A program made the translations under genes and the position numbers. Under the pieces are notes generated by a model that was not told the DNA's origin, ran no database searches, and was given only the letters and a program-made list of their open reading frames with translations. This document shows, one piece after another, positions 6,068-53,668 of a stretch of 53,668 nt of DNA. The stretch comes from a virus (taxonomy: Duplodnaviria > Caudoviricetes), in IMG/VR virus record IMGVR_UViG_3300043778_000094, positions 1-53,668 of that record, one strand, 5' to 3'. Numbering within the stretch: position 1 is the first letter of the stretch; each line of letters begins with the position of its first letter.

Positions 6068-7168
6068 ATGTTGGACATTTTCAGCAACAATGCCGCGTTC
6101 ACGGTGACCGGCCTGACGGCAGCCCTGCTGCGCACGCCCTATGTGCCAGGCCTCATCGGCAGACTCGGATTGTTCGCGCCGCGGCCGATCGCGACCACGA
6201 CGACGACGATCGAAATCAAAGGCACTCGCCTGGCGCTGGTGCCCGAGGTTCCGCGCGGTGCGCCGCCCACCCCCAATGTGGAGGATCGGCGCGCGCTCGT
6301 GCCCTTTCGCATCCCGCACTTCCCAATCCGCGATACGATCATGGCGGACGCGGTCCAAAATGTGCGAGCGTTTGGCACGGAAGATCAGCTCGAGGCGCTG
6401 TTGACCGTGCGCAACGAGCGCATGTCGAGCATGGGCCTCAAGCTCGACGTGACCCAGGAATATCTGCGCCTCGGCTCGGTCCGTGGGATCGTGGTCACCG
6501 CGGCCGATCGCAACACCGGCGCGCCGTTGCAGTCGATAAGCCTGTTCGATCAATTCGAGGTCGCCGCCCAGCCGCCGCGCAATTGGCCGATCATCGGCGC
6601 CGGCCTGCTCGGGCAAGAAGCTGCGGCTTGGGAGGGGCAGCTTACCGGCTTGATCAATGACCTCGCCCGTAGCATGGCCGACGAGTTGCCGGGGGGCATG
6701 CTGGGCGGTATTTTTGGGGTTTGCGGTGCAGAGTTTTTTGATGCCTTCTCGATGCATCCCGAGCGCCGCGCGGCCTTTATCGGCATTGACAGTCGGCCAG
6801 TCATCGAGCCGCTGCTGGGGACCCGCATTCAATTCCGCGAAGTGACCATCGAAGAATATCGCGGGCGTACCGGCAACGTTCAATTCGTCCAACCAAGACA
6901 ATGTCATTTCTTCCCGGTCGGCGTCCCCGAATTGTTCATCGAGGTCTTTGCGCCGGCCGACTACAACGAAACGGTCAACACGCTCGGACTGGCGCGCTAT
7001 GCCAAGATGGAATCGCTGGATTTCGACAAGGGTGTGGAGCTGGAGGCGCAGATGAACGTTCTCCCGATCTGCACCAGCCCGCGCGCGTTGTTCACGGTGA
7101 CGGCAACCGATTATGTTCGTCCGCCCGCGCCACTGGTTGGGACTTCGCCGGCACGCAACCGCAGCTAA
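6068..7168 (+). CDS. Major capsid protein, lambda gpE family
   Basis: FTVTGLTAAL..PYVPGLIGRLGLF, FAPADYNETVNTLG and EAQMNVLPICTSP motifs. Confidence 0.93.
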   Translation: MLDIFSNNAAFTVTGLTAALLRTPYVPGLIGRLGLFAPRPIATTTTTIEIKGTRLALVPEVPRGAPPTPNVEDRRALVPFRIPHFPIRDTIMADAVQNVRAFGTEDQLEALLTVRNERMSSMGLKLDVTQEYLRLGSVRGIVVTAADRNTGAPLQSISLFDQFEVAAQPPRNWPIIGAGLLGQEAAAWEGQLTGLINDLARSMADELPGGMLGGIFGVCGAEFFDAFSMHPERRAAFIGIDSRPVIEPLLGTRIQFREVTIEEYRGRTGNVQFVQPRQCHFFPVGVPELFIEVFAPADYNETVNTLGLARYAKMESLDFDKGVELEAQMNVLPICTSPRALFTVTATDYVRPPAPLVGTSPARNRS

Positions 7169-7719
7169 TGCCTCGCGCCGTCGCCGACGTCGTCTTTACG
7201 CGGATGATCCTGCGCGAGGCTCCCGCCAGTGCCTCGCGTAATCGGATGTATTTGGTCGGCGTCGGTGAGCCTGGCACGCTGCTCAGCGTCCACTATACCG
7301 GCGCGCTGGATACCAGCTACGCCACGCCGGTTGCGCTGCCCAACAACGCCAACGGCATCCTGCTGGACCGCCAGCTGACAACTGGTGCCGCGATGCGCGT
7401 CATGCTGACCCGTAAGTGTGAGGTCAACGACGCCTATATCGAGTATGGGAATTTTGACCGGCTGACCGTCAACCTGGCGCTCGCGGCGAATGCTGGGATC
7501 ATCGTGCGTCAAGCTATCACCGACAGCTCTGGGATCGCTGGGGGCATCTTCGATGATGACGGGCATGATGGGGAGGCCGAGCGGGCCTGGGTGGCCGCCG
7601 TGCCGCCAGCAGCCGTGCCAGGGGAGGGACGCCCGCCCTTCTATCATTCCTGGGGGATCGTCTTGACCTTTCGCCGCTGGGTGGTCGGCCTGGCCTTGCG
7701 CTGGGGGCGGAGGGGCTGA
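7168..7719 (+). CDS. Head decoration protein paralogue 4
   Basis: TAATG coupling to the capsid gene; EPGTLL..MLTRKCEVNDAYIEYG..AGIIVR, same motif set as the other paralogues. Confidence 0.7.
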   Translation: MPRAVADVVFTRMILREAPASASRNRMYLVGVGEPGTLLSVHYTGALDTSYATPVALPNNANGILLDRQLTTGAAMRVMLTRKCEVNDAYIEYGNFDRLTVNLALAANAGIIVRQAITDSSGIAGGIFDDDGHDGEAERAWVAAVPPAAVPGEGRPPFYHSWGIVLTFRRWVVGLALRWGRRG

Positions 7720-41262: not shown

Positions 41263-43231
41263 GGCTTCGATCCCAAGCTTTCTTGACTACCTCGAACCCG
41301 ACAACGAATTGGGGGTCGCCGAATGGTCTGATCGTTACCGCGTCTTGACTTCCCGCAGCGCTGCCGAACCCGGTCCGTACCGTACCGCTCGCACCCCATA
41401 TTTGCGAGAGCCGATGAACGATCTCGGGGTGACTTCGCCAATTCAGCGCGTGGTGTTGAAGAAGGCGGCGCAAGTCGGCGCCAGCGAACTCGGCAATTGT
41501 TGGATCGGCTACATTGTCGACCAGGCGCCGGGGCCGACCATGTTGGTGCAGCCGACCGTGGAGCTCGCCAAGCGGTATTCACGCCAGCGCATCGACCCGC
41601 TGCTCGACGAAAGCGAACAATTGCGCGTCAAGGTCCACCCGGCGCGGTCGCGCGACTCGGGCAATACCATGCTCCTCAAGGAGTTTCTCGGCGGCGTGTT
41701 GGTCATCACCGGCGCGAATTCAGCCGTGGGCTTGCGCTCGATGCCCGTGCGCTTCCTGTTCCTCGACGAGATCGATGCCTACCCTGGCGACATCGAGGGC
41801 GAAGGCGATCCCGTGGCCCTGGCCGAAGCCCGTGCGCGCACCTTCAGCTTTCGCGCCAAGAAATTGCTGGCTTCGACGCCGCTGATCAAAGGCAGTTCCC
41901 GCATCAGCGCCGAATACGAGGCCAGCGACCAGCGCAGATATTTCGTCCCGTGCCCGCTTTGCGGATTTGCGCAAGCTCTCGAATTCGCCCGGCTGCGCTG
42001 GCAACCCGGCCGGCCCGAAACCGTCGTCTACCAGTGTGCTCAATGCGAGAAGAGCTTCCCCGAATATCACAAGACGGCGATGCTCGAAGCCGGCGAATGG
42101 CGGCCGACCGCGATCAGCTCCGACCCGTTGACCCACGGCTATCACATCTCCGGGCTTTACAGCCCGATCGGCTGGCTCGGCTGGGCGCAAATCGCCCGTG
42201 ACTGGGAAAAGGCGACGAACGATCCCGACGCCCGCAAGACCTTCGTCAACACCGTCCTCGGCGAAGAATGGGAGGAGGAGGCCGATGCCGTGCCCGATTG
42301 GGAACGCCTCTACGAGCGCCGCGAGGCGTGGCCGCACGCCACGGTGCCAGAGCGTGGCTTGTTCTTGACGGCTGGCGCCGACGTCCAAATCGACCGTATC
42401 GAGATCGACGTTTGGGCCTGGGGGCGCGGCCTCGAGTCGTGGCTGGTCGAACATATCGTCATCAACGGCGACCCGGGGCGGCCGGAGATTTGGGAAATCC
42501 TGACCGAACTATTGGGCCGCACCTGGGAACACGAAACCGGCGTGCGCCTGGCGCTGCAGCGTTTGGCGATCGACACCGGGTTCACCACTCAAAACGTCTA
42601 CCAGTGGGCGCGCGGCCAGGATCGCGCCACGGTGCTGCCGGTGCGCGGCGTCGGCGCTTATGATCGTCTGGTGCCCGTGTCGGGGCCCACCAAGATCGAA
42701 GTGACGAACCAGGGCAAGCGGCTCAAGCGCGGGCTGAACCTGTGGACCGTCTCCGTCAGCTTTTTCAAGAAGGAACTCTATAAGCATCTGGGGCTGCCCA
42801 AGCCGACCACGGAACAGCTCGGCGCCGGCTTCACCTATCCCCACGGCTACATCCATTTGCCCGATACCGTGTCAGACGAATGGATTAAGCAACTGACCGC
42901 CGAACAACAGGTCATCATCCGCTCGCGCCGTGGCTTTGCCGCGCGCACCGAATGGCGCCAGTTGCGACCGCGCAACGAGGCGCTCGATTGCCGGGTCTAT
43001 GCACGGGCCGCGGTCTGGCTCGCCGGGGCCGATCGATGGTCCGAAAACCGCTGGCGTGCTCTCGAAGATCAATTGGGCCTCGAACCGCCGCCCGAACCCA
43101 ATCCGCCCGAACCGGAGACAGCCCCCGAAGACGATCAGTTGAAAGTTGCCCTGGGCGGGATCATCCGACGCCCCGTGCCCACGGCGATGGCATCACGCCG
43201 GCGACGCCGCGTCGGCTATTGGCAGGGATGA
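41261..43231 (+). CDS. terL: Large terminase subunit, lambda gpA family
   Basis: RTPYLREPM, KAAQVGASE, LFLDEIDAY, STP, DQRRYFVPCP.C, LTAGADVQ and RNEALDC motifs. Confidence 0.96.
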   Translation: MASIPSFLDYLEPDNELGVAEWSDRYRVLTSRSAAEPGPYRTARTPYLREPMNDLGVTSPIQRVVLKKAAQVGASELGNCWIGYIVDQAPGPTMLVQPTVELAKRYSRQRIDPLLDESEQLRVKVHPARSRDSGNTMLLKEFLGGVLVITGANSAVGLRSMPVRFLFLDEIDAYPGDIEGEGDPVALAEARARTFSFRAKKLLASTPLIKGSSRISAEYEASDQRRYFVPCPLCGFAQALEFARLRWQPGRPETVVYQCAQCEKSFPEYHKTAMLEAGEWRPTAISSDPLTHGYHISGLYSPIGWLGWAQIARDWEKATNDPDARKTFVNTVLGEEWEEEADAVPDWERLYERREAWPHATVPERGLFLTAGADVQIDRIEIDVWAWGRGLESWLVEHIVINGDPGRPEIWEILTELLGRTWEHETGVRLALQRLAIDTGFTTQNVYQWARGQDRATVLPVRGVGAYDRLVPVSGPTKIEVTNQGKRLKRGLNLWTVSVSFFKKELYKHLGLPKPTTEQLGAGFTYPHGYIHLPDTVSDEWIKQLTAEQQVIIRSRRGFAARTEWRQLRPRNEALDCRVYARAAVWLAGADRWSENRWRALEDQLGLEPPPEPNPPEPETAPEDDQLKVALGGIIRRPVPTAMASRRRRRVGYWQG

Positions 43232-43235
43232 CCCG

Positions 43236-43805
43236 ATGAAAGCAACTAGCCGCGCCACGGTCAAAATCAACAGCATCATCCCGAACCCGCGCAACAACCG
43301 GGTTCACCCGCCCGACCAGATCGAAATGCTCAAAGCTTCGATCGAGCGCTTTGGTCAGTCGCGGCCCGTGTTTGTGCGAAAGGAAAATCGCATGTTGATC
43401 GCCGGGCACGGCATCCACCAGGCGATGCGCGACCTGGGGCACGGCGAGATCGACGTGATCTTTTGGGATGTCGACCAGAAGACCGCCGACGAATATCTGC
43501 TCGCCGACAATCGGCTCGGCGAATTATCCCATTTCCACCGCGACCGCACGCTGGCCTTGCTCGAGGACGTGACCGAGGACGCCTATTCAGCGCTCGGGTT
43601 CACGGCCGAGGATGTCGAGGCCTTGCTCGAAAAAGTCAGCAAGCCGCCCGAAGTCAAGCAGATCAACACGGGCGCTGTCGCCGATCGCTTTTGGATCACG
43701 GTGCAAGGACCGATGACGACGCAATCGGCGGCGTTGCAGCGGATCCAGCATTTCATGGCGGAGTTTCCCGATGTCGAAATCGAGCTCGGCACCCTTAAGA
43801 ACTGA
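43236..43805 (+). CDS. ParB N-terminal domain protein
   Basis: PNPRNNRVH..QI..L.ASI..FG..LIAGHG..LADNR. Confidence 0.85.
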   Translation: MKATSRATVKINSIIPNPRNNRVHPPDQIEMLKASIERFGQSRPVFVRKENRMLIAGHGIHQAMRDLGHGEIDVIFWDVDQKTADEYLLADNRLGELSHFHRDRTLALLEDVTEDAYSALGFTAEDVEALLEKVSKPPEVKQINTGAVADRFWITVQGPMTTQSAALQRIQHFMAEFPDVEIELGTLKN

Positions 43806-44475
43806 AAAGTGGGGTCTCAACGTCAACCGTCAGTTCGGCCGACGGCTCGGTCCAGCGGGCGGTTTGCGCCAAAGGGTCGCCAACAACCCGGCTGCGCTGG
43901 CGGCCAAAGTCGAAATCCGCAGCAACGTCTTGAACGCGATCGGCGCCGACAAGGCGCGCGTCTTCGATGCCTTCGCCGGCGAGGGTCAGCTCTATTCCCG
44001 TGTCTGGTCGAAGGCTCAACGCTACGTCGGTTGCGATTTGAAATGGTATCGCGACGGGCGGGAACTCTACGTCGGCGACAGCCGCAATGTCATGCGGGCG
44101 ATCGACCTCGCCCCGTTCAACGTCTTTGATTTCGACAGTCACGGCAGCCCGTGGGAACACGTGCTGATCCTGTGCGCGCGGCGCCTGGTGACGGCGGGCG
44201 AACAGATCGGCGTCACCTTCACCGAAGGTTCGCGAGTCGACATTCAATACGGCCATTTTTCGGCCGCGTTGGCGCAATTGATCGGCGTGCAAGGCAAGGC
44301 GAAGGCCACCGGCATGGCGCGGGACAAGGGCTATCATCAGCTTCTCGATCGCGTTGTTACGGCGACCGCGCGACGGCTCAATTGCAGCATCCTCTATCAT
44401 TGGCAGGCGCGACCGCCGGGCCGGGGGACGCGTCTGGTCAATTACGTCGGCCTGGTGCTCGAAGGCCTGCCGTGA
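43771..44475 (+). CDS. SAM-dependent methyltransferase-fold protein (start uncertain)
   Basis: VFDAFAGEG motif I and FDFDSHGSPW motif. Confidence 0.7.
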   Translation: MSKSSSAPLRTEKWGLNVNRQFGRRLGPAGGLRQRVANNPAALAAKVEIRSNVLNAIGADKARVFDAFAGEGQLYSRVWSKAQRYVGCDLKWYRDGRELYVGDSRNVMRAIDLAPFNVFDFDSHGSPWEHVLILCARRLVTAGEQIGVTFTEGSRVDIQYGHFSAALAQLIGVQGKAKATGMARDKGYHQLLDRVVTATARRLNCSILYHWQARPPGRGTRLVNYVGLVLEGLP

Positions 44476-45011
44476 AGATCGTCAGTCGGCGGACCGCTGA
44501 CCTGATCCCGTACGAACACAACGCTCGCCAGCACAGCGACGAGCAGATCGACCAAATCGCTGCCTCGATCGAAGAATTCGGTTGGATGACGCCGCTGTTG
44601 ATCGACGGCAGCAACGGCATCATCGCCGGACACGCGCGTTGGCTGGCAGCGCAACGCTTGGCGATGCCGCGGGTCCCGTGCATCGAGCACGCTCATTTGA
44701 CCGACGCGCAACGCCGCGCCTATGTCCTCGCCGACAACAAGTTGACGCTGAACGCGACCTGGGACGAGGCGATGTTGGCGCTGGAGCTCGAACGGCTCGA
44801 CACGACGGAATTCGATTTGTCGCTGATCGGCTTCAGTGAACGAGAATTGTCACGGCTGCTCGACGGGCTCGGCGAGGGCGGCGACGCCGATAGCCAGACC
44901 GTGCCGGAGTCCTGGGTTGTCGTCGTCGAATGCGCCGACGAAGCCGACCAGGTCGCCTTGATCGAACGAATGCAGGCGGAAGGCCGGACCGTCAGAGGAT
45001 CAATCGGGTGA
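44472..45011 (+). CDS. ParB N-terminal domain protein 2
   Basis: LIPYEHNARQHSDEQIDQIAASIEEFGW..IIAGHAR..AYVLADNKL; GTGA coupling. Confidence 0.9.
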   Translation: MKIVSRRTADLIPYEHNARQHSDEQIDQIAASIEEFGWMTPLLIDGSNGIIAGHARWLAAQRLAMPRVPCIEHAHLTDAQRRAYVLADNKLTLNATWDEAMLALELERLDTTEFDLSLIGFSERELSRLLDGLGEGGDADSQTVPESWVVVVECADEADQVALIERMQAEGRTVRGSIG

Positions 45012-46168
45012 ACATCGACATCGTGCGCGAATCCCCCGTCGTCAGCACACCGCGCGTCGTGCAGATGACCGGCATGTTCGACGTGTCGCTCGAAGAAAAG
45101 AGCCGCGTTGAAATCAATGCAAAATTGCCGATCGAGGAACGCCCGTGGAGTATCGGTCTGATCGTCGGGCCGTCCGGCTGCGGCAAGTCGACCGTGGCGC
45201 GCGAACTTTTTGGGCCCGCCGTGATCGCCGGCTTCGATTGGCCTGAAGATCGCAGCATCCTCGACGGCTTTCCGGCCGCGATGAGCATCAAGACGATTAC
45301 CGCGCTGCTCAGCGCCGTGGGCTTTGGCAGCGTGCCGAATTGGTTGCGCCCGTTTCACGTGTTATCGAACGGCGAACAATTTCGCGCCACGGTCGCCCGG
45401 GCGCTTGCCGAGTGTCCCGACCTCGCCGTCATCGACGAATTCACCTCTGTCGTCGATCGCCAGGTCGCCAAAGTCGCGGCTCATTGCGTGCAAAAGACGG
45501 TGCGGCGCAATAAGCGCCAATTCATCGCCGTCAGCTGTCATTACGATATCGTCGAATGGCTGCAACCAGATTGGGTCTTCGAACCCCATCTCGGCGCCTT
45601 CGAATGGAGGTCTCTTCAGCGACGACCCGAAATCGCCGTTGAAATCCGCAGTGTCGATCACGGCGTCTGGCACCGCTTTAGCAAATATCATTATTTGACT
45701 TCGGTATTGCACAACGGGGCGATCTGCATCGGCGGCTTTGCCAACGATCAATGCGTCGCCTTTACTTCCGCCGTGCGACAAGTGCATTCGACGGTGCACG
45801 ACATTTGGCGCGAACATCGCACCGTGGTCTTGCCCGATTATCAGGGGTTGGGGTTCGCCGGCATTCTGGCCGAATGGCTCGGCTATCATCTATGGCAACA
45901 CGGGTGGCGATTTCATTCGGTGACATCGCACCCCGCGATCATCGCGCAGAAGGCAAGATCGCCGCGCTGGCACCTCATGCGCCACGGGCTGCAATCGGGA
46001 GGAGGCGTCTATGCAGACCCGTCGCTCAAGCGAACCCAGCAACGATTGTCCGAACGACGGATCTCCGCCAGCTTTGTCTACACCCCGCCGTCTGGGACGC
46101 CATCAGCACGGCGGCCAGAGCGCGACGGCCCATTGCTCGGTCCCGAATATCATCGACGACGACGATGA
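45008..46168 (+). CDS. ABC-type ATPase fused to a GNAT acetyltransferase
   Basis: GPSGCGKST, LSNGEQFR and IDEFTSVVDR; C-terminal F.KYHYL..RTVVLPDYQGLG acetyl-CoA motif. Confidence 0.88.
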   Translation: MNIDIVRESPVVSTPRVVQMTGMFDVSLEEKSRVEINAKLPIEERPWSIGLIVGPSGCGKSTVARELFGPAVIAGFDWPEDRSILDGFPAAMSIKTITALLSAVGFGSVPNWLRPFHVLSNGEQFRATVARALAECPDLAVIDEFTSVVDRQVAKVAAHCVQKTVRRNKRQFIAVSCHYDIVEWLQPDWVFEPHLGAFEWRSLQRRPEIAVEIRSVDHGVWHRFSKYHYLTSVLHNGAICIGGFANDQCVAFTSAVRQVHSTVHDIWREHRTVVLPDYQGLGFAGILAEWLGYHLWQHGWRFHSVTSHPAIIAQKARSPRWHLMRHGLQSGGGVYADPSLKRTQQRLSERRISASFVYTPPSGTPSARRPERDGPLLGPEYHRRRR

Positions 46169-46202
46169 ATGGATCGCGGCTTTGATCGGCCGCGCCGGAT
46201 CA

Positions 46203-46517
46203 CTAGGTTGAAACCTGCAAATGGATCATGGCGATTTCGTCGGCGTCGGCGAGATCGCGGTAGATCGTCTTGAGCGCCGCGGCGATGTCGCCGATTTCGT
46301 CGAGGCGGCCGACTTCGAAACGCGCGACCCGGGCGGCGAGCTCCGGGCTGCGCGCTGGGTCGTAGTTGTAGCGGATCACGATCGATCGGCCCGGCCAATA
46401 CGTGTTCGCCGTGAACGGCCGACGATGGCGGCGATATTCAGTCGTCTTTTCGCCACGGGCGAATTGCTCAAAAAACACCCGCTTGACCACCAGCGGGTAC
46501 GGCTTCGGCTCGCTCAT
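46203..46517 (-). CDS. ASCH-domain protein
   Basis: LVVKRVFFEQFARGEKTTEYR (G-x-K-x-x-E-x-R). Confidence 0.8.
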   Translation of the reverse strand: MSEPKPYPLVVKRVFFEQFARGEKTTEYRRHRRPFTANTYWPGRSIVIRYNYDPARSPELAARVARFEVGRLDEIGDIAAALKTIYRDLADADEIAMIHLQVST

Positions 46518-46536
46518 TGTCCCCCCCTGGAAGCTT

Positions 46537-46755
46537 CTAATGTATCAGACGAGCGATCAGCGCCCCGATTACGGCCGCCAACGCGCCGTTGCCAATCAAC
46601 GCCAACGGCACATACCAATGGCGTTCGCGTTCCAACTTCAGTGTTTCCTGAAATAGCTTTTCCCGTTCAGCCGAAAGTTTGTCGCGTTCGGCCGCAAGCT
46701 TGTCATGTTCAGCGATGAATTTGCGAGTTTCGGCAGCAAGATGTTCTTCGCTCAT
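46537..46755 (-). CDS. Small coiled-coil protein with C-terminal TM segment
   Basis: AE(H/R)DKL heptad repeats then a hydrophobic tail; GGAG SD. Confidence 0.7.
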   Translation of the reverse strand: MSEEHLAAETRKFIAEHDKLAAERDKLSAEREKLFQETLKLERERHWYVPLALIGNGALAAVIGALIARLIH

Positions 46756-46774
46756 TTCTGACGCTCCAGAATTA

Positions 46775-46797
46775 GGGCCGGGTTTGCGGCCCGGCCC
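46775..46797. terminator. GC-rich hairpin after the KlcB-like gene
   Basis: GGGCCGGG-N7-CCCGGCCC; no clear U-tract. Confidence 0.4.
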
Positions 46798-46807
46798 GGT
46801 GATTTCA

Positions 46808-47470
46808 CTAGCTCTTTTGTTTCAATTCGTAGAGCCAGCCGCCGGGTTGCCAATCGGCATCGTCTGGGTCGGGGCCGACTGGGATTTCTTGTCGCGTGCG
46901 AGTGTCGTGATCCCAACGCGTTCTGACCATTTTGACCGGTTTCTTGGAACGCTCTTGCGCCAGCTTCGTGACGCATTGCTTGACCGTGCGCCCGCGCGCG
47001 TCGTCAGCGTCGCAATAGATCGAAAGATAGCCGCTTTCGCTCAGAAACGGCCGATCCCAATCAAACGCCGTCAATTCGAAATGGAAGTCGCCGTCGGCGT
47101 GAACCACGACTCGGCATTTCTTGACCGTGATCAGAAACGTGCCGCTCTGACCCCAAAGCGGCACTTGACCGGGTGCAGTCGCGAGCAATTTTGTCAACCG
47201 GGCATGGCCGGTCAACTCTTCGTCATCGTCATCGTCTGGCATGGCGTCGCCGACGGCATAGAGGCGATCGGCGAATTCGCTGGCCTGGGCTTCGTCGCCG
47301 CCGCGGATCGCAGCGTCATACTGCTTGAGCCAGGCGCGGCCTTGTTCGAGCCGTTCGGTGGGGTCGCCGGCGAGCTCACGGTGGATGCGATAACGCCGTT
47401 CGATAGGACTCGACGGCGGCAGAAAATCAAACCCCGGCTGAAACGCCTGGGCGGTTGCTGTTCGACGCAT
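46808..47470 (-). CDS. KlcB-like protein
   Basis: APGQVPLWGQSGTFLI..FHFE..DWDRPFLSESGY recalls IncP KlcB; ATG follows the conserved SD box. Confidence 0.55.
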   Translation of the reverse strand: MRRTATAQAFQPGFDFLPPSSPIERRYRIHRELAGDPTERLEQGRAWLKQYDAAIRGGDEAQASEFADRLYAVGDAMPDDDDDEELTGHARLTKLLATAPGQVPLWGQSGTFLITVKKCRVVVHADGDFHFELTAFDWDRPFLSESGYLSIYCDADDARGRTVKQCVTKLAQERSKKPVKMVRTRWDHDTRTRQEIPVGPDPDDADWQPGGWLYELKQKS

Positions 47471-47504
47471 GTATCGTCTCCATTGCAGATCGGGAAAGAG
47501 GCTT

Positions 47505-47565
47505 CCCGTGACGCGCGGGCGAGCCGCGCGTTTCGGCCCGGTGCTACCGGGCCTCGTCAGACGGG
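47505..47565 (-). ncRNA. Hammerhead ribozyme HH1 (type I)
   Basis: cccgu CUGACGA ggcccggu-agc-accgggcc GAAA cgcgcgg-cucgc-ccgcgcg UC/acggg; GUC cut after 47510. Confidence 0.95.
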
Positions 47566-48372
47566 GTATTCGCGCACCCGCAAATCGCGGGGCCATTCTT
47601 CTGGGTCGGCGCCAGCATAATGCACGGTCGACAACGACCGATCATCGTCACGGGCGATCGACCCCAATTGCTTCATAAACACCGGCACGGCGGCCGCCTG
47701 ACAGCGCCGGATCATAAGTCGGGCCCAGGCGATATCAAACGATCGCGCTCGCTGCCGCGGTCGCCCGCTTTCGCCGCCGATCACTACCCAGCCCGTCCCC
47801 GTCGGGTCGCGATCGATCATCTCGAGCTGCGGCTCGACCGAGATCCACGGGACTTCGGTCGGCAGCCGGCTAAGCCACGGCACGCGTTCGTCCCAACGGC
47901 GCTGATCCTCGGCCGAGACGCCGAGCCAGATGCCGGGGTGCGCCGTCGTCGCGCCGATCTGCGCCAACAACCCAGCGAGATTGTCGGGTCGCTTGGTCAA
48001 CACCTGGAAGACATGCCCACGGGCGCGCTGCGCCGCCGTCATCGCCTCCCAGATGCGGGCAAACCATTCGCGCGGCATGTCGTCGTGGGCCAGGTCGGAC
48101 ATGCTGTTGACGAAGATCATGCGCGGTCGCGCCCAGCGCATGGGTTGCGTCAGCGCCGCTTCCCAGAAGCGCAATTCCCCGGTCCACACCGGGCCTCCCT
48201 TGGTGTTGCGCGTCAAACCGCGATATTTGGCGGACGCCGGCCCCCCAAAGCCGGCGATCCGTGCAGCTTCGCGCATCGCGTAACAATGCGTACACCCGGG
48301 CGAAATCACCGTGCATCCGACTGTCGGGTTCCACGTCGACTCGGTCCAGGCAATCGCGGTGTCGCGTGCCAT
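47557..48372 (-). CDS. Phage Gp37/Gp68 (DUF5131) family protein
   Basis: IAWTESTWNPTVGCTVISPGCTHCYA, IFVNSMSDL, FQVLTKRP, WVVIGGESG and VPVFMKQLG motifs. Confidence 0.93.
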   Translation of the reverse strand: MARDTAIAWTESTWNPTVGCTVISPGCTHCYAMREAARIAGFGGPASAKYRGLTRNTKGGPVWTGELRFWEAALTQPMRWARPRMIFVNSMSDLAHDDMPREWFARIWEAMTAAQRARGHVFQVLTKRPDNLAGLLAQIGATTAHPGIWLGVSAEDQRRWDERVPWLSRLPTEVPWISVEPQLEMIDRDPTGTGWVVIGGESGRPRQRARSFDIAWARLMIRRCQAAAVPVFMKQLGSIARDDDRSLSTVHYAGADPEEWPRDLRVREYPV

Positions 48373-48388
48373 GTGTTTCTCCCCCCCG

Positions 48389-48417
48389 TTGACAAATTTG
48401 CTAAAAACCCCCAATAT
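48389..48417 (+). promoter_or_regulatory. Putative promoter of the antisense sRNA
   Basis: TTGACA, N17, CAATAT; predicted start site ~48424-48425. Confidence 0.55.
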
Positions 48418-48424
48418 CCGCGCC

Positions 48425-48487
48425 GAAGACGTGAGTCTTCATTGCAGAACTGGGGGGCCGTCCTGATTGGGGCGGCCCCCACTTTTT
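48425..48487 (+). ncRNA. Putative trans-acting sRNA antisense to the shared SD box
   Basis: GAAGAC-GUGA-GUCUUC hairpin, single-stranded AUUGCAGAACU, then an 11-bp terminator stem (48453-48480) and T5. Confidence 0.65.
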
Positions 48488-49781
48488 ACGCTGCCTCGTC
48501 AGAAGCGGTCTCGGGAAAGACTTCGCTGACTGACTTATCGCCCTCGCCGGGAACGACTTTATCCGGCGACAACACGGTTTCGACCTGGCGCCAATCGAGG
48601 CAGCGCGTGGCCGCCACTTCCGGCGTCAAACCGCCTTCCCACCAGCTGTCGAGCGGCACGCCGTCGGCGAGTTGGTGGATCGTCAAGCCGGCATTGTCAC
48701 GCGACAACACGGCGTTGACATCGGCGAAGAATTTTGCCCTCGCCTTTTTCGCGGGCGCGCCCTTGAGCTTGGCTCGCTGGGCGACGCGCGTGGTGTCGCC
48801 GTCGTCTGTCGTTTCGGCCTCGTCCTCATCAAGCAATTGAGGCGATGGTGCCGGCGCAGGTAACGCGGTCTGAGGCTGCGTACGGGTTATCAACGTGTTG
48901 ATCCGCTGATCGTAATCCTCGATCTTTTTCTGCAGCAGCCGATTGTTCGGCATTTTTTCGAGCCGCGCCATGGTGCGCGTGCGATTGGCCCGCAAAGCGC
49001 CAATTGTCCCGGTGATTGCCGGGTTCAATATGCGCGCTTGCTGCGGCGCCAACGCCTGATCTCTGAGCCCCATCACGGGCATCAACGCCAACACCGCCCC
49101 CGGGCATCCGGGGAACATAATCAACGTTGGCTTGTCATCGCCCGCGCCGAAGACCTGCACGGTCGGCGACTCGAGCAATTTCGCGAGATCAGCGACACCC
49201 TTGAGATAGGCCGCTTGATAGCCGGTACTTTCGAGGTCCAGTGTTTCGCGCGACGACAGATTGATGCTGGCGAACATGCCGTCGTAAGCCGGAAAGTCGC
49301 CTTCGACTGGGAACAGACGAAAGGTGACATTGTCGTGAGGATCCGACAACAACAGGCGCGGCGCGCCAGTCCCATACGAAATCACGGCGGAGTCGCCGCC
49401 GAGCTTTTCGATCATCATCAACTGTTCTCTGAACAGAGCGAGCGGCACCGTTATTCCCTTTCCGAGCCAACCGGGCAGCGTTGCTGACCCGCTTGGGATC
49501 GAATAGGCGAATAAGCGATGACCGTCGGTCGCGCTGACACGGACTTCGCCTTCGCGCGTGGCGATGTTGACGCCCTGGAGATTTTCCGGGACGTCTTTCT
49601 TGTCGCCGTTGACATCGGTGGTTTTGGCACCGGTGCAGCTGATCGCTGCCTTGAGCGCGAGCACGGGGATGGCGATCGGCTCAAGCGCCGCCACCGACTC
49701 CACGACCGCCTCCTCGACAACGTTCTCGGCAGCGCCGTTCGACGGCGCCACTTCGCGCGAAGTGCTTTTCTTGGTTCGCAT
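48486..49781 (-). CDS. Beta sliding clamp (DnaN)-like protein with terminal extensions
   Basis: LQGV..ATDGHRL, GITVP, EGDFPAY, GYQAAYL and LALMPV resemble clamp domains 2-3. Confidence 0.75.
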   Translation of the reverse strand: MRTKKSTSREVAPSNGAAENVVEEAVVESVAALEPIAIPVLALKAAISCTGAKTTDVNGDKKDVPENLQGVNIATREGEVRVSATDGHRLFAYSIPSGSATLPGWLGKGITVPLALFREQLMMIEKLGGDSAVISYGTGAPRLLLSDPHDNVTFRLFPVEGDFPAYDGMFASINLSSRETLDLESTGYQAAYLKGVADLAKLLESPTVQVFGAGDDKPTLIMFPGCPGAVLALMPVMGLRDQALAPQQARILNPAITGTIGALRANRTRTMARLEKMPNNRLLQKKIEDYDQRINTLITRTQPQTALPAPAPSPQLLDEDEAETTDDGDTTRVAQRAKLKGAPAKKARAKFFADVNAVLSRDNAGLTIHQLADGVPLDSWWEGGLTPEVAATRCLDWRQVETVLSPDKVVPGEGDKSVSEVFPETASDEAA

Positions 49782-49817
49782 AATGGGTCTCCATTGCAGG
49801 TATCGGGAAATTAGCTT

Positions 49818-49878
49818 CCCGTGACGCGCGGGCGAGCCGCGCGTTTCGGCCCGGTGCTACCGGGCCTCGTCAGACGGG
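49818..49878 (-). ncRNA. Hammerhead ribozyme HH2 (type I), identical to HH1
   Basis: 49814-49878 is an exact 65-bp copy of 47501-47565; GUC cut after 49823. Confidence 0.95.
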
Positions 49879-49879
49879 T

Positions 49880-50143
49880 TTAGTGATGTAGTAATTGCGC
49901 GATTTGCGTTAATTGGCCGCTGATGTCGCCGAGCCGACCGTTCATGCTGACAATCATGCCAAGAACTGCGATCGTGGCGGCGGCATTCGCGCCGACCGCC
50001 CAAATCAACATTGTCAGCTTTCCTTCGACGCCGAGCAGCCGCTTTTCATAATCGGCAAGTTCTTCTGCGGCTTTGTCGGCTTTGTCGGTCGAAGCGCCAG
50101 CGTCCAGCAACGCATCGCGTAATGCGCCGAGTTGCAACGCCAT
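49880..50143 (-). CDS. Small coiled-coil/TM protein (DUF1640-like)
   Basis: LRDALLDAGAS.DKA..AAE..then a TM segment; CAATGGAGG SD. Confidence 0.65.
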   Translation of the reverse strand: MALQLGALRDALLDAGASTDKADKAAEELADYEKRLLGVEGKLTMLIWAVGANAAATIAVLGMIVSMNGRLGDISGQLTQIAQLLHH

Positions 50144-50159
50144 GTTGCCTCCATTGTTG

Positions 50160-50375
50160 TCAGCCGAGATATAGCAACAATTCCTCGGCGCCGAACACCT
50201 GTTCGACACCGCAGCTGTCGCACGTGTAGTTGCGAGCGTCGGGTTCGCAACCGTCGGCCTCTTCGCCGCAAATCAGGCAAAAGCCGGGGTTATCGAGTTC
50301 CGTCATCTCGCGTTCGACTGCCTCCATCACGCGTTCAGCGGTGATCGAAGCGTGCCACAGCTTGCGCGCTAGCAT
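50160..50375 (-). CDS. Small zinc-ribbon protein
   Basis: GFCLICG..CEPDARNY.CDSCG..VFGAEE. Confidence 0.75.
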   Translation of the reverse strand: MLARKLWHASITAERVMEAVEREMTELDNPGFCLICGEEADGCEPDARNYTCDSCGVEQVFGAEELLLYLG

Positions 50376-50575
50376 GACCGGCACTCCGGGTAGAGTTGCA
50401 GACGGGTCGAGCGCATCGCCGGCACGCCGTGGCGGCCGAATTGACGCCGCCAGGCAGCAAGTTCCTCGTTCGATACGGCAAAGCGGATCGAAGCCTCGGC
50501 GATCGACAACAAGTCGTAATCGATCGCCAGCAACAACACCGCTTTGCGTTGCGGCGACCAACGATCAGTGGCCAT
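50369..50575 (-). CDS. SciP (DUF1153)-like CtrA-inhibitor homologue
   Basis: RWSPQRKA.LL.AI...LLSIAEA..RF.VS.EEL.AW.R....HG..AMR.TRLQ.Y follows the SciP pattern RW..RKA.VV.AV.GGLLS.EEA..RY.L..EEF..W.....HG..GLR.T..Q.Y. Confidence 0.8.
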   Translation of the reverse strand: MATDRWSPQRKAVLLLAIDYDLLSIAEASIRFAVSNEELAAWRRQFGRHGVPAMRSTRLQLYPECRSC

Positions 50576-50756
50576 TGTTCGGGACCATGACGTTGAGCGC
50601 CAACTTGACGCCGGGGCGCTTGCACTCGACTGGCACTATCCCGTGGGTCGAGGCGATCAGCTTGGTTTTGCCGGTCTTCGACGTGACGCCGCGGGCGGTC
50701 AGATCGCAGGTGATTACGAGCTTGTCGCCCGTCACCTTGATCTCGACGTTTTCCAT
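50565..50756 (-). CDS. Small beta-rich basic protein
   Basis: MENVEIKVTGDKLVITCDL..SKTGKTKLIASTHG; follows HH3 and the SD box. Confidence 0.8.
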   Translation of the reverse strand: MENVEIKVTGDKLVITCDLTARGVTSKTGKTKLIASTHGIVPVECKRPGVKLALNVMVPNNGH

Positions 50757-50792
50757 AAGGGTCTCCATTGCAGGTGGTACGGAATTGGACTT

Positions 50793-50853
50793 CCGCGACG
50801 TCCCGACTTGTGTCGGGACGTTTCGTCCCCTGTCACGGGGACTCGTCAGGCGG
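50793..50853 (-). ncRNA. Hammerhead ribozyme HH3 (type I)
   Basis: ccgc CUGACGA gucccc-gugaca-ggggac GAAA cgucccgac-acaa-gucgggacg UC/gcgg; cut after 50797. Confidence 0.95.
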
Positions 50854-50856
50854 GGA

Positions 50857-51066
50857 TTAATCCCAGGATCGGGATTTGCCGTAAGTGTCGCGGATGAGGA
50901 TTTTCGTCCCGAAGTCGCGCGAACGCGCCTCGGTGGCGAAGGCCTGAACCTCCTTCTCGTCCTCGCATTGCGCGTGGTCGAGCAGTTCGAGCCCGTCACG
51001 GCTCAACACCGTGACTTGCCATTTGACCCTGCTGCCGCGTGGCGGCACATATTGGCGACGTGCCAT
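50857..51066 (-). CDS. Hypothetical protein
   Basis: 69 aa starting MARRQYVPPRG; bounded by HH4 and HH3. Confidence 0.75.
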   Translation of the reverse strand: MARRQYVPPRGSRVKWQVTVLSRDGLELLDHAQCEDEKEVQAFATEARSRDFGTKILIRDTYGKSRSWD

Positions 51067-51100
51067 GATGGTCTCCATTGCAGAAGTGCGGATTTTTTGT

Positions 51101-51160
51101 ACCGCTACGCCCAGCTTGCGTTGGGCGTTTCGCTGGGGTCTCACCAGCTCTTCAGGCGGT
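51101..51160 (-). ncRNA. Hammerhead ribozyme HH4 (type I)
   Basis: accgc CUGAAGA gcugg-ugagacc-ccagc GAAA cgccca-acgcaagc-ugggcg UA/gcggu; GUA cut after 51106. Confidence 0.93.
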
Positions 51161-51448
51161 TTGTGCTGCCAACGCGTCCTCGAGGGCCTTCTTGGCAACT
51201 GGGTTGGTGAACGTCGCGACGCGAGCCGCGAGCCGGGTCCGATTGGCCCGACGTGCAGCCTCGTGACGATCGCACGGGACGCTCGAACGCACGCGACGCG
51301 CCGGCGCATCGGCCAGTTGCGCGTCATAGTGCGCCAGCGCCTCAACAACCGCTGCTTTCGCGACGGCGTTGGTGAAGGTTTCGCCCTTCTGGGCCAGCCG
51401 GGTACGATTTGCGCGCACGGCTGCGAAGTGCATCACTGACTTTGTCAT
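51152..51448 (-). CDS. Hypothetical protein with two RANRTRLA repeats (paralogue A)
   Basis: Internal duplication; stop codon is the UGA of the HH4 core. Confidence 0.8.
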   Translation of the reverse strand: MTKSVMHFAAVRANRTRLAQKGETFTNAVAKAAVVEALAHYDAQLADAPARRVRSSVPCDRHEAARRANRTRLAARVATFTNPVAKKALEDALAAQTA

Positions 51449-51486
51449 CGTGGACTCCATTGCAGAAAAGGGGTGCGGTCGAAAGT

Positions 51487-51542
51487 ACCGCGACCAGCCT
51501 TGTGGCTGGTTTCGCCCGGATTTCACGGGCTCATCAGGCGGT
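51487..51542 (-). ncRNA. Hammerhead ribozyme HH5 (type I)
   Basis: accgc CUGAUGA gcccg-ugaaauc-cgggc GAAA ccagcc-acaa-ggcugg UC/gcggu; cut after 51492. Confidence 0.95.
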
Positions 51543-51742
51543 TACGCGACAGTGATAACGACGTTGTCGCTGTCGCCGTTCGACCCGGTGTCGAGGTCAT
51601 AGCGACCGACACGGATCAACGCGTCGAAGATGATTTCTTCGTCGTCGTCTAACATGTTGACGGCGATTACATCGAACAGCGGGGCTGTTTCGGACGAACC
51701 ATCGGAGAAAGTCAGGCAGACGATCGTTGAACGGGTGATCAT
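51542..51742 (-). CDS. Small acidic hypothetical protein
   Basis: 66 aa starting MITRSTIV, containing LDDDEE; bounded by HH6 and HH5. Confidence 0.75.
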   Translation of the reverse strand: MITRSTIVCLTFSDGSSETAPLFDVIAVNMLDDDEEIIFDALIRVGRYDLDTGSNGDSDNVVITVA

Positions 51743-51766
51743 CGTGGGCTCCATTGCAGAGAGTTA

Positions 51767-51824
51767 CCGCTACGCCCAGCAAGCGCTGGGCGTTTCGCCC
51801 GAATTTCACGGGCTCGTCAGGCGG
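51767..51824 (-). ncRNA. Hammerhead ribozyme HH6 (type I)
   Basis: ccgc CUGACGA gcccg-ugaaauu-cgggc GAAA cgcccagc-gcuu-gcugggcg UA/gcgg; cut after 51771. Confidence 0.95.
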
Positions 51825-52086
51825 CTTGTGACAGCGCGTCTTCGATCGCCTTGCGGGCGATTTCGTTGGTGAACTTCGAAGCGCGAACTGCGAGCCGGGT
51901 GCGATTTGCCTTGACAGCTGCGAGGTGCCGATCGCACGGGGTGGGCACATTGTGCAGCGCGTCGAAAATCGCGACCGCTTCGGAAATCGCCTTGCGTGCG
52001 ACTTCGTTGGTGAACGAATTCGACTTGGCAGCCAGGCGGGTCCGGTTTGCGCGGATCGCAGCGATATGGCGGATCGTGTTGGTCAT
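51817..52086 (-). CDS. Hypothetical protein with two RANRTRLA repeats (paralogue B)
   Basis: Internal duplication; stop codon is the UGA of the HH6 core. Confidence 0.8.
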   Translation of the reverse strand: MTNTIRHIAAIRANRTRLAAKSNSFTNEVARKAISEAVAIFDALHNVPTPCDRHLAAVKANRTRLAVRASKFTNEIARKAIEDALSQAA

Positions 52087-52122
52087 CGTGGGCTCCATTG
52101 CGATAGGGTTTCGGGTTGATTT

Positions 52123-52176
52123 CCCGTGAGCGCTTGTGCGCTTTCGTCCCGGCATCACCGGGCCTCGTCAGACGGG
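52123..52176 (-). ncRNA. Hammerhead ribozyme HH7 (type I)
   Basis: cccgu CUGACGA ggcccgg-ugaug-ccgggac GAAA gcgc-acaa-gcgc UC/acggg; CUC cut after 52128; one G/A mismatch in stem II. Confidence 0.88.
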
Positions 52177-52529
52177 TTGCGATCAAGCGCGCGTCATTTC
52201 TGACGCGCGCTCGCTCGTTTCGTTTGCAAGTGGAGATCCTGCAATGAGCCGCGCTATCTGGCAGCGCGGGTGCATTCCTTCGATTTTGTCGTGTCCGAAA
52301 CCCGAAGTGGGTCGCCTGTGGGGGGCCTGCCGGGGAGCTTCAGGCGCTAGTGCGCGCTTTCGAGCTTTCCTACCCGATCCCGATCCGTCAGCCCGGGGAA
52401 TGATATGGTTGGCTGACTTTGCAATCCTTCGAAGCTGGGTCGCGCCTGGATTGCTTCGCGCGTCCCTTGGAAGTCTTGTTTCGTTTCGCGTTTCGCTTCG
52501 TCCTTCTGTCGTTTCGTCTTACACACATG

Positions 52530-52577
52530 AATATAAGCTATTCGCCGGGCTTCTCAAGAGATTTTTTCCACTTTTCC
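52530..52577 (-). promoter_or_regulatory. Putative promoter driving the ribozyme array
   Basis: TTGAGA (52557-52552), N16, TATATT (52535-52530), with A-tracts upstream (UP-element-like). Confidence 0.65.
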
Positions 52578-52917
52578 GGGCGTTTGTACTCGTTTTCGGA
52601 AGTACTTGAGAAACCAACCGCATCCGCACGTTGAAACACGCCGCAAGCGGAGTGCGTCATCCTGTCGCAGTCCGCTTGTTGCGTGCATCTTGCATGCGAG
52701 GTCGCGCGATGGGGGGTCGCAAAGTCGCGTCAGATCGCGCTGGGCGCGTCGCTGGCGCGCGAAAGCGCTTCGCACGTAGGGCAGCTTAGGGCGCGTCATC
52801 ACGTGCCCCAGGACGCGTCCCTGTCGATTTGCGTCGTCGCGCGAGATCGCGACGTGGTTCTCGCGTGTTGGTAGAAAACGGTTTACGGACGACCGTTTTT
52901 GCGGCTAAGCTTCGCGC

Positions 52918-53478
52918 ATGAAAGGCATGCGGCCGGGACAAGGCGGCTTCACGTTCGACGCCACGGTGTTTCTGGGGAACCTCGAAGCATTGGCCCCGCC
53001 GAAGTCTGATCCCGCGGTGGCGCTGGCGCTGGTCGACACCGCCAAGGCCAGCATCACCAAAGCGGCGCAATTGATCGCCAAGCGCACCGGGCTCAAGAGC
53101 GGCACGGTCAAGGCGCGACTGTCTTATGACTCGGTGCGGGTCGGCGATTATCAGGCGACGATCCGCTCATCACGCAAGCCGATCCCGCTCTACGACTTCC
53201 CCGGCACGGCGCAGACCGGCGCAGGGGTGCGCACGCGCGCCTGGGGCAAGAGCCAGGTCATCCGCTCGGCGTTTATCGCCAACATGCGGTCCGGGCACCG
53301 CGGCGCTTATCGCCGCCGAACGCGTCGCCGCCTGCCGATCAAAGAATTGTGGGGACCGACTATTTATGGCACCTTCGCCACGCCGGAAGTGCAGGGCCTG
53401 ATCCGCTCAACTATGCAGGATCGTTTGAGGACAGCGCTTCTCCGGCGTCTCGCGGCGGCCCAGCGCCGCCGACGATGA
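52918..53478 (+). CDS. Minor tail/neck protein, lambda gpZ-like
   Basis: Basic protein with AFIANMRSGHRG.Y.R...RLPIKELWGP motif. Confidence 0.8.
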   Translation: MKGMRPGQGGFTFDATVFLGNLEALAPPKSDPAVALALVDTAKASITKAAQLIAKRTGLKSGTVKARLSYDSVRVGDYQATIRSSRKPIPLYDFPGTAQTGAGVRTRAWGKSQVIRSAFIANMRSGHRGAYRRRTRRRLPIKELWGPTIYGTFATPEVQGLIRSTMQDRLRTALLRRLAAAQRRRR

Positions 53479-53482
53479 CAAA

Positions 53483-53515
53483 GGGCCGGTTCTCACTGTG
53501 ACTGAGAACCGGCCC
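53483..53515. terminator. 13-bp perfect hairpin
   Basis: GGGCCGGTTCTCA-N7-TGAGAACCGGCCC right after the gpZ-like stop; only short T-tracts. Confidence 0.55.
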
Positions 53516-53541
53516 CGATTGCTTGCTCCACCCCGTTCGCG

Positions 53542-53668
53542 CCCAACGGTGCGGCTACCGCTCTACGCGGGTCGCAGGGGAAAGGCAAGCGTTTTCAATG
53601 CCGGATTGTTCACCGGAAGCCAGGGCGGAACGTCGGCGGCAGATCGCCGATTTGTGGCGCAGCATCGG
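53542..53668 (+). repeat. Terminal direct repeat, copy 2
   Basis: Identical to 1-127. Confidence 0.95.

What the first reader, a model, noticed from the sequence alone, without database searches (positions are those of the whole stretch)
47470..52176. Seven hammerhead ribozymes punctuate one phage operon into gene cassettes
Seen: the minus strand carries seven complete type I hammerheads (47505, 49818, 50793, 51101, 51487, 51767, 52123). Each has CUGANGA, stem II, GAAA, stem III, an NUH triplet (GUC x4, GUA x2, CUC x1) and a 4-5 bp stem I. Stem sequences differ between copies while pairing is kept, which indicates selection on structure. All are sense to the operon and lie at gene junctions. 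Established: this is the hammerhead catalytic consensus, and cleavage yields 5'-OH and 2',3'-cyclic phosphate ends. Inference: one transcript from ~52523 self-cleaves into pieces of 357, 279, 386, 309, 974 and 2313 nt plus end fragments. This would be a protein-free analogue of RNase III processing of the T7 early mRNA. Single hammerheads are known in phages, but I do not know a described systematic gene-by-gene array; novelty needs a literature check.
Basis: partly seen in the sequence, partly recalled or inferred. Interest (0 to 1): 0.97.

Follow-up and report, generated by a model that had tools for sequence, protein, structure and literature searches.

The report
Seven-hammerhead array in phage operon
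Seven hammerhead ribozyme motifs sit between small genes of a temperate phage and likely cut its long message into short, hairpin-capped pieces; soil RNA contigs break at those points, but this layout was described in prophages in 2011, so it is a well-supported new example, not a new kind of system.

Summary
Observation confirmed: seven type I hammerheads on the minus strand at the stated cut sites; 1 of 200 shuffles gave even one. The novelty claim fails: Perreault 2011 (PMC3088659) described clustered hammerheads flanking single prophage genes, proposed this processing and showed cleavage. This scan also found such arrays before on other DNA (26 findings, at least 25 genomes). Corrections: only 6 of 12 internal junctions carry one, H6 and H7 are identical over 65 nt, and one transcript through H7 is unproven. 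Added here: (1) in four soil RNA-library contig sets, 0 of 29 listed pieces bridge a cut (8.3 expected) and 18 ends cluster at the ribozymes, a hint only: contigs, no DNA control; (2) a fixed unit: upstream stop codon in or against the ribozyme, ribozyme, a hairpin that caps the downstream piece and covaries with stem I (140 of 266 versus 1 of 27), then a shared ribosome-binding motif; (3) a relative with 14-16 units. Best reading: constitutive processing into stabilised, standardised mRNAs (0.6). New member of a known kind.

The parts
52530..52557 (-). sigma-70-like promoter (10 of 12 matches, 16-nt spacer); predicted start near 52523
   Evidence: listed contigs of two RNA-library runs end at 52511
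52178..52523 (-). untranslated structured leader; hairpin with a 17-nt loop and two further short motifs shared with the 46-kb relative; no Rfam family
   Evidence: fold z -2.3, relative z -3.0; pattern scan; Rfam
52123..52176 (-). hammerhead H1 (CUC), cut 52128/52127; in the leader, no upstream ORF
51817..52086 (-). gene 1, 89 aa, two copies of a basic helical repeat; its stop codon is the UGA of the H2 core
51766..51825 (-). hammerhead H2 (GUA), cut 51771/51770
51542..51742 (-). gene 2, 66 aa, acidic, no family hit; last base of its stop codon is the first base of H3 stem I
51487..51542 (-). hammerhead H3 (GUC), cut 51492/51491
51152..51448 (-). gene 3, 98 aa, paralogue of gene 1 (60% identity); stop codon is the UGA of the H4 core
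51101..51160 (-). hammerhead H4 (GUA), cut 51106/51105
50857..51066 (-). gene 4, 69 aa, no family hit; stop ends 7 nt before C3 of H5
50793..50853 (-). hammerhead H5 (GUC), cut 50797/50796; the only copy listed against Rfam Hammerhead_1 (28.4 bits, below cut-off)
49880..50756 (-). block of four small genes without a ribozyme between them (63, 68, 71, 87 aa); the 68-aa one is DUF1153; last stop ends 6 nt before C3 of H6
49818..49878 (-). hammerhead H6 (GUC), cut 49823/49822
48486..49781 (-). 431-aa gene with a weak sliding-clamp-like N-terminal part and, by eye, one more copy of the helical repeat
   Evidence: PHROG 947 E 5e-5, Pfam DNA_pol3_beta_2 below cut-off; sequence
48452..48481 (.). GC-rich hairpin (-21.5 kcal/mol) at a junction without a ribozyme; terminator-like on the plus strand; followed on the minus strand by a degenerate copy of the ribosome-binding motif at 48446
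47557..48372 (-). DUF5131 gene, 271 aa; stop codon is the UGA of the H7 core
47505..47565 (-). hammerhead H7 (GUC), cut 47510/47509; body identical to H6, unlike H7 of four close relatives
46808..47470 (-). 220-aa gene after H7, no family hit
47470..52127 (-). seven downstream leaders of 28-43 nt: predicted 5-prime hairpin of 4-7 bp formed by the released stem I strand, then the shared motif GCAAUGGAG and an AUG

Best explanation
The seven motifs have the complete type I hammerhead core and likely cut the phage's accessory-operon message soon after transcription into one-gene or few-gene mRNAs, each predicted to keep its stop codon and two 3-prime hairpins and to start with a 5-prime-hydroxyl hairpin 28-43 nt ahead of its start codon. 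Shown in sequence: core, stems, position, stop-codon packing, shared ribosome-binding motif, covarying downstream hairpin. Established chemistry (Olzog 2021 abstract): 2',3'-cyclic phosphate on the upstream piece, 5'-OH on the downstream piece. Inferred: folding is helped in some copies by a loop II / 3-prime-tail pseudoknot; after the cut the short stem I (4-5 bp) opens, helped by ribosomes terminating on or against it, and its freed strand refolds into the cap hairpin, which blocks re-ligation; the 5'-OH plus hairpin slows 5-prime-dependent decay (recalled property of RNase E and RNase J), so each gene gets a context-independent leader and its own half-life, as engineered ribozyme insulators do (recalled). 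The purpose in the phage life cycle is not shown.
For: 7 of 7 motifs meet the core consensus used by Perreault 2011; chance 1 of 200 shuffles. Perreault: 14 of 18 consensus hammerheads active in vitro, three tandem arrangements cleaved as predicted. RNA-library contigs of four soil runs: 0 of 29 listed pieces bridge a cut (random placement mean 8.3, P 5e-5); 10 ends lie 9-34 nt downstream of a cut (1.3 expected), 8 ends lie within 8 nt of C3 (0.7 expected); listed contigs do bridge 45-nt folds down to -24.7 kcal/mol while H1, H3, H4 (-19.7, -23.0, -20.7) are not bridged. Loop II/tail pairing 3.53 bp against 2.74 permuted, 0 of 300 permutations, n = 276 non-redundant motifs. Cap hairpin: complement of the first 4 nt lies within +7..+27 in 140 of 276 motifs against 27 and 36 in distal windows; downstream CCGC follows stem I GCGG in 140 of 266 but stem I ACGG in 1 of 27, where CCGA takes its place in 12 of 27 (control 0); all 7 window leaders fold such a hairpin. 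Upstream ORF ends on the core UGA in 101 of 273 motifs against 26 and 35 ORFs open in the other frames. Six IMG/VR contigs of the same lineage keep the motifs they cover.
Against: No cleavage assay, no raw reads, no strand information. Only 32 of 74 laid pieces were listed, no DNA run was laid as control, the four studies share year and habitat, and the runs were chosen for holding this stretch. Strong hairpins alone can break RNA-seq contigs; this cannot be excluded for H2, H5, H6, H7 (-28 to -32 kcal/mol), and H6/H7 share a 65-nt repeat that could break contigs by itself. The cap hairpin is as stable as stem I or more so in H3, H5, H6, H7, which could keep those copies off. Within the window alone the pseudoknot signal is not significant (P 0.12; weak or absent in H2, H4, H7) and the exact-complement test is met by only 2 of 7. 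Half of the internal junctions have no ribozyme.
Confidence: 0.6

Rival explanations
1. Translation-gated switch: a ribosome terminating on the core UGA or just before it strips the 5-prime strand of stem I, the 3-prime strand pairs with its downstream complement, and the ribozyme stays uncut; cutting then happens mainly when the upstream gene is not being translated, tying processing to host translation state.
For: All 6 intergenic copies have the upstream stop in the core (3) or 4-7 nt before C3 (3); in the 46-kb relative 7 of 16 units have it in the core and 6 within 5-7 nt. Active fold and cap fold lie within 4 kcal/mol of each other in all 7. The cap covaries with stem I.
Against: Contigs from soil show no piece bridging any site, which fits efficient cutting. 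Tight packing plus selection against reading through a ribozyme explains the frame bias without regulation; 93 of 273 motifs have the stop more than 10 nt away or none. H1 has the same cap and no upstream ORF.
Confidence: 0.17
2. The cuts serve decay rather than stabilisation: self-cleavage shortens the life of the accessory message and so shuts the operon down quickly or keeps toxic early genes low, as glmS cleavage does.
For: glmS cleavage followed by cellular RNases lowers expression (review passage). The genes are small and mostly of unknown function.
Against: Contig pieces that fill whole inter-ribozyme genes occur in several runs (for example 51818-52118, 51153-51470). The covarying 5-prime hairpin and strong ribosome-binding motif behind every cut look built to preserve and translate the downstream piece.
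Confidence: 0.12
3. The main role is at the DNA level: the repeated ribozyme plus ribosome-binding motif acts as a homology patch for gene gain, loss and duplication, and cleavage is incidental.
For: A 99%-identical relative has gained a 210-nt gene exactly at the H7 junction (L306); H7 of this genome equals H6 over 65 nt while four relatives have a distinct H7; genes 1 and 3 with H2 and H4 are a 75%-identical duplication.
Against: Stems differ between copies while the catalytic core, the pseudoknot partner and the cap are kept, which is selection on RNA function, not on DNA identity. Recombination is better read as how the array grows.
Confidence: 0.07
4. Type I ribozymes on both sides of a gene cut and re-ligate to give circular or spliced single-gene RNAs.
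For: Each piece carries a 5'-OH and a cyclic phosphate, and stem I strands are alike between neighbours (H2-H5). Perreault raised this possibility.
Against: Perreault found no circular or spliced products; no joints were listed in the four runs (table 5; contigs drop rare forms); the cap hairpin hides the strand needed for ligation.
Confidence: 0.04

Closest known systems
Clustered hammerhead ribozymes flanking single genes or short gene blocks in prophages (Perreault et al. 2011, PMC3088659; sections 6, 7, 11 part 1, 17 and passages read; figures not seen)
   Same: Same ribozyme class, sense to a phage polycistron, at junctions of small non-conserved genes; same proposed processing; pseudoknot between stems I and II known in all three types (about 40%).
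   Different: Seven copies of one topology (14-16 in a relative) against the tandem and triple sets named in the text (Figure 3 not seen, so its largest cluster is unknown to me); the text read does not mention a stop codon in the core, a cap hairpin or a shared ribosome-binding motif; their evidence is in vitro and heterologous, here it is indirect but from soil RNA libraries.
Prokaryotic hammerheads flanking small unknown ORFs (de la Pena et al. 2017 review, PMC6155905, section 8 read; Nucleic Acids Res 2019 review PMC6765202, passages read)
   Same: [quoted passage not shown]
   Different: Both call the biological role open; this locus does not settle it but offers a uniform test set.
Rfam Hammerhead_1 (RF00163)
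   Same: Type I topology and identical core in the one listed alignment (H5, E 0.00088).
   Different: No copy reaches the gathering score; longer stems II and III; ten related loci with arrays also gave no hammerhead hit.
RNase III processing of the T7 early mRNA, and engineered ribozyme insulators such as RiboJ (both recalled, from no call)
   Same: Cuts between genes of one message; a defined 5-prime end ahead of the ribosome-binding site.
   Different: T7 needs a host enzyme and leaves other end chemistry; here no protein is needed. The insulator is synthetic and of other topology.

Membership tests
Hammerhead ribozyme class, type I topology | Core C3 U4 G5 A6 N7 G8 A9, G12 A13 A14 A15, U16 H17 | tested here: met
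   7 of 7; consensus as given in Perreault methods passage
Hammerhead ribozyme class, type I topology | Three stems with paired bases next to the core; stems II and III closed, stem I open | tested here: met
   (stem I 4-5 bp; H1 has one mismatch in stem II behind the closing pair); constrained folds
Hammerhead ribozyme class, type I topology | [quoted passage not shown] | tested here: inconclusive
   3-4 bp loop II/tail pairing in H1, H3, H5, H6; 1-2 bp in H2, H4, H7; window alone P 0.12; significant across 276 related motifs
Hammerhead ribozyme class, type I topology | Site-specific self-cleavage 3-prime of H17 | not testable with these tools
   only an indirect hint from contig ends
Rfam RF00163 Hammerhead_1 | Bit score at or above the gathering cut-off (34) | tested here: not met
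   0 hits at gathering; best 28.4 bits. Not filed under this Rfam family.
Clustered phage/prophage hammerheads (Perreault 2011) | Several hammerheads close together flanking single genes or short blocks | tested here: met
   7 motifs in 4.7 kb; three single-gene plus one more single-gene piece, one four-gene and one two-gene block
Clustered phage/prophage hammerheads (Perreault 2011) | Located in a phage or prophage genome, sense to the genes | tested here: met
   portal, major head, tail sheath, terminase, integrase hits; complete virus record; all motifs and ORFs on the minus strand
Clustered phage/prophage hammerheads (Perreault 2011) | Products of the expected sizes on transcription of the polycistron | tested here: inconclusive
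   contig pieces end at the expected places, none bridges; contigs cannot show true RNA ends

The most novel reading that the evidence does not exclude
Phages use a portable four-part expression cassette (stop codon inside the ribozyme core, type I hammerhead, self-forming 5-prime cap hairpin, standard ribosome-binding site) in which the terminating ribosome and the cap hairpin together set whether and how irreversibly each junction is cut: a natural, translation-coupled ribozyme insulator, repeated up to 16 times in one operon and active in soil.
Probability: 0.2. Interest if true: 0.7.

Novelty: new member of a known kind. Interest (0 to 1): 0.36.

Why it matters
The purpose of phage hammerheads is called an open question in the reviews read. 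This locus does not change the kind, but it gives an indirect sign that such an array is cut in nature, and a design rule (stop codon against the core, covarying cap hairpin, fixed ribosome-binding motif) that makes concrete, cheap tests of stabilisation versus decay versus translational gating. The units are also ready-made natural insulator parts, and most are missed by Rfam cut-offs, so such arrays are under-annotated.

Tried and rejected
Rfam at gathering score: no hit in the window, no hammerhead in ten related loci. Leader as a known RNA family: no significant Rfam match; a three-part pattern scan of viral contigs gave 18 stretches, 7 from the two lineages and 11 that I judged chance, coding-looking and without ribozymes; a two-sequence alignment of the leaders mis-registered and was not used. 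Function of the repeat protein: no Pfam or PHROG hit, 20 homologues nearly all unnamed or hypothetical, model pLDDT 72.6 and pTM 0.39 with four helices, no viral structure match at E <= 0.001; a locus search with eight homologues found only the 46-kb relative and one fragment. No annotated phage matches the 431-aa protein. The metagenome scan added no new array lineage with 3 or more motifs beyond three loci that match the window lineage by spacing. Depth bins were not used to rank genes; stretches without cover there (most of 43000-47500 in two runs) prove nothing. Misassembly as the cause of H6 = H7 was considered; the shared flank on the 5-prime side is about 13 nt in the relatives, short for a repeat collapse, but raw DNA reads were not checked. 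The literature search for DUF1153 in phages gave nothing usable (listing only). No look-alike stretch of this window among earlier findings.
Full report
OBSERVATION. The minus strand of 47505-52176 holds seven complete type I hammerhead motifs. The record is a complete virus genome with direct terminal repeats, and the only CUGANGA..GAAA sites in it are these seven. Rfam does not call them at gathering score; H5 scores 28.4 bits on Hammerhead_1 against a cut-off of 34. H6 and H7 are identical over 65 nt.

CONTEXT. PHROG hits show portal, head protease, major head, tail sheath, baseplate, terminase and integrase genes (44 ORFs scanned): a temperate contractile-tailed phage. The ribozymes lie in a minus-strand operon of 13 mostly small ORFs (46203-52086, my reading) set against the direction of the late genes, behind a sigma-70-like promoter at 52557-52530 and a 440-nt untranslated leader. 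One ribozyme sits in the leader and six sit at 6 of the 12 internal junctions; four genes lie between H5 and H6 and two between H6 and H7. Family hits among 13 operon ORFs: DUF1153, DUF5131, a weak sliding-clamp-like match and unnamed PHROGs. DUF1153 is, from recall, the alphaproteobacterial SciP family, a hint at the host class that I did not test.

THE UNIT. Each copy has the same anatomy: upstream stop codon, ribozyme, a 28-43-nt leader, the motif GCAAUGGAG, AUG. The stop is the core UGA in H2, H4, H7 and ends 4-7 nt before C3 in H3, H5, H6. The strand released from stem I is predicted to pair with a downstream complement in all seven leaders, giving a 4-7-bp 5-prime hairpin. Loop II can pair with the tail behind stem I by 3-4 bp in H1, H3, H5, H6 but not well in H2, H4, H7; for the window alone this is not significant (P 0.12).

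RELATED LOCI. A looser descriptor (not calibrated on shuffles) found 347 unique, 276 non-redundant motifs, later 390 and 305. Six IMG/VR contigs belong to the window's lineage (five blasted, 98-99% identical over the operon). A 46-kb contig (L008, L434) with paralogous genes and the same ribosome-binding motif has 14 units by descriptor and 16 counting two seen by eye; 7 of the 16 have the upstream stop in the core and 6 within 5-7 nt. Arrays of 5-8 also occur in Clostridia MAG contigs (L175 8, L172 7, L167 5, L208 5) and other viral contigs (L060 6, L054 5, L102 5). Across the set: loop II/tail pairing 3.53 bp against 2.74 permuted, 0 of 300 permutations reaching it; an ORF of 50 codons or more ends on the core UGA in 101 of 273 motifs against 26 and 35 open in the other frames, whereas 325 non-ribozyme sites show 45 against 107 and 117; the cap complement occurs in 140 of 276 against 27 and 36 in distal windows and follows stem I when it changes (CCGC after GCGG 140 of 266, after ACGG 1 of 27; CCGA after ACGG 12 of 27 against 0 in the control window). 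The frame bias shows tight packing and avoidance of read-through; it does not by itself show regulation.

RNA EVIDENCE. Sixteen runs on record as RNA, all labelled soil metagenome, hold part of the stretch, eight with a word share of 0.22-0.43. I laid the best four, contigs only, on 43000-53668; 32 pieces were listed and 42 were not. Of the 29 listed pieces in 47400-52600 none bridges a cut, against 8.3 expected by random placement (P 5e-5); 10 ends lie 9-34 nt downstream of a cut (H1 in three runs, H3, H4 and H6 in two, H5 in one) and 8 lie within 8 nt of C3 (H2, H4, H5, H6, two runs each). Two runs also end at 52511, 12 nt inside the predicted start. As a control for structure-induced dropout, listed contigs do cross 45-nt windows folding to -24.7 kcal/mol, more than H1, H3 and H4 (-19.7, -23.0, -20.7), but less than H2, H5, H6, H7. 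Limits: contigs give no strand and no true ends, DNA may be in the libraries, no DNA run was laid, the runs were picked for holding the stretch and may be one campaign. I take this as a real but indirect hint of cleavage in soil. No joints were listed. No listed piece crosses the hairpin at 48452-48481, so one transcript running to H7 is not shown.

EVOLUTION OF THE ARRAY. Genes 1 and 3 with their ribozymes are a duplication (75% DNA identity). A relative (L306) gained a 210-nt gene at the H7 junction, which removed the core stop of DUF5131 and lengthened it from 271 to 296 aa. H7 of this genome carries the body of H6 but the tail of the H7 seen in four relatives, which reads as recent conversion and leaves a mismatched pseudoknot partner.

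MECHANISM. Most likely (0.6): fast cleavage after transcription, release of the short stem I, refolding of the downstream end into a cap hairpin, giving separate mRNAs with protected ends and standard leaders. Rivals: translation-gated cutting (0.17), decay signal (0.12), DNA-level cassette patch (0.07), circularisation (0.04). That the motifs can cleave at all I put near 0.9; the uncertainty is about purpose.

PRIOR ART. Perreault et al. [quoted passage not shown] Two reviews repeat this and call the role open (PMC6155905 section 8; PMC6765202 passages). Olzog et al. detected three active type II hammerheads near phage-like genes in Desulfovibrio vulgaris (PMC8782182, abstract and passages). 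A 2026 preprint on ribozyme discovery has no occurrence of phage, operon or polycistron in its main text. Seven searches (listings only, open-licence library) showed no paper on the cap hairpin, the core stop codon or metatranscriptome evidence for such arrays; subscription journals were not searched. Earlier notes of this scan report the same kind on other DNA: 26 findings in at least 25 genomes for arrays and 24 in at least 23 for the stop-codon overlap; these are unchecked notes and are not counted as support.

VERDICT. Real, clean, and of a kind known since 2011. New member of a known kind; interest 0.36, raised a little by the soil RNA hint and the covarying cap.

Noticed in passing
window 52178-52523 (-) and L008 3272-3730 (+): The leaders of both lineages share a 7-8-bp hairpin with a 17-nt loop starting ACCAUAUC, followed by GGAUCGG, and about 140 nt later a hairpin and UUGCAGGAUCUCC; stems differ, motifs are kept. 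Possible undescribed leader RNA (for example an antitermination or processing element); only two lineages found.
   Followed up: partly
window 51817-52086, 51152-51448 and inside 48486-49781 (-): A basic helical-hairpin repeat occurs twice in each of two small paralogues and, by eye, once in the clamp-like protein; the 46-kb relative has the same three-gene pattern. 20 homologues, no function.
   Followed up: partly
window 50369-50575 (-): DUF1153 gene (E 1e-16); recalled as the SciP family of CtrA inhibitors, which would suggest an alphaproteobacterial host and cell-cycle meddling.
   Followed up: partly
L434 7858-15900 (+), contig IMGVR_UViG_3300036780_000230: 14-16 type I hammerhead units over 8 kb, several with one extra base after A9; cargo includes an ATP-dependent DNA ligase domain gene and a DUF6011 gene.
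   Followed up: partly
window 48452-48481: Strong hairpin at the junction that lacks a ribozyme; terminator-like on the plus strand, followed on the minus strand by a degenerate ribosome-binding motif with no AUG at the usual distance; one contig ends at 48479. In the 46-kb relative the junction after the orthologous gene has a hammerhead.
   Followed up: partly
window 47711-47738 (-): Second sigma-70-like site (10 of 12) inside the DUF5131 gene, about 200 nt upstream of the H7 cut; could give H7 and the genes behind it their own transcript.
   Followed up: no
window 43146-46168 (+): Between terminase and the array lie two ParB-like genes, a 234-aa ORF without family hit and an ABC-ATPase/acetyltransferase fusion; with DUF5131 nearby this may be a DNA-modification module.
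   Followed up: no
L175, L172, L167, L208, L201, L226, L236: Type I arrays of 4-8 copies with the same stem I and tail pattern in contigs of Clostridia-type MAGs; ten array loci tested had no Rfam hammerhead hit.
   Followed up: partly
L032 6801 and 7005 (+): Two identical hammerhead units 204 nt apart, a tandem duplication; a weak tRNA match follows at 7124-7216.
   Followed up: no
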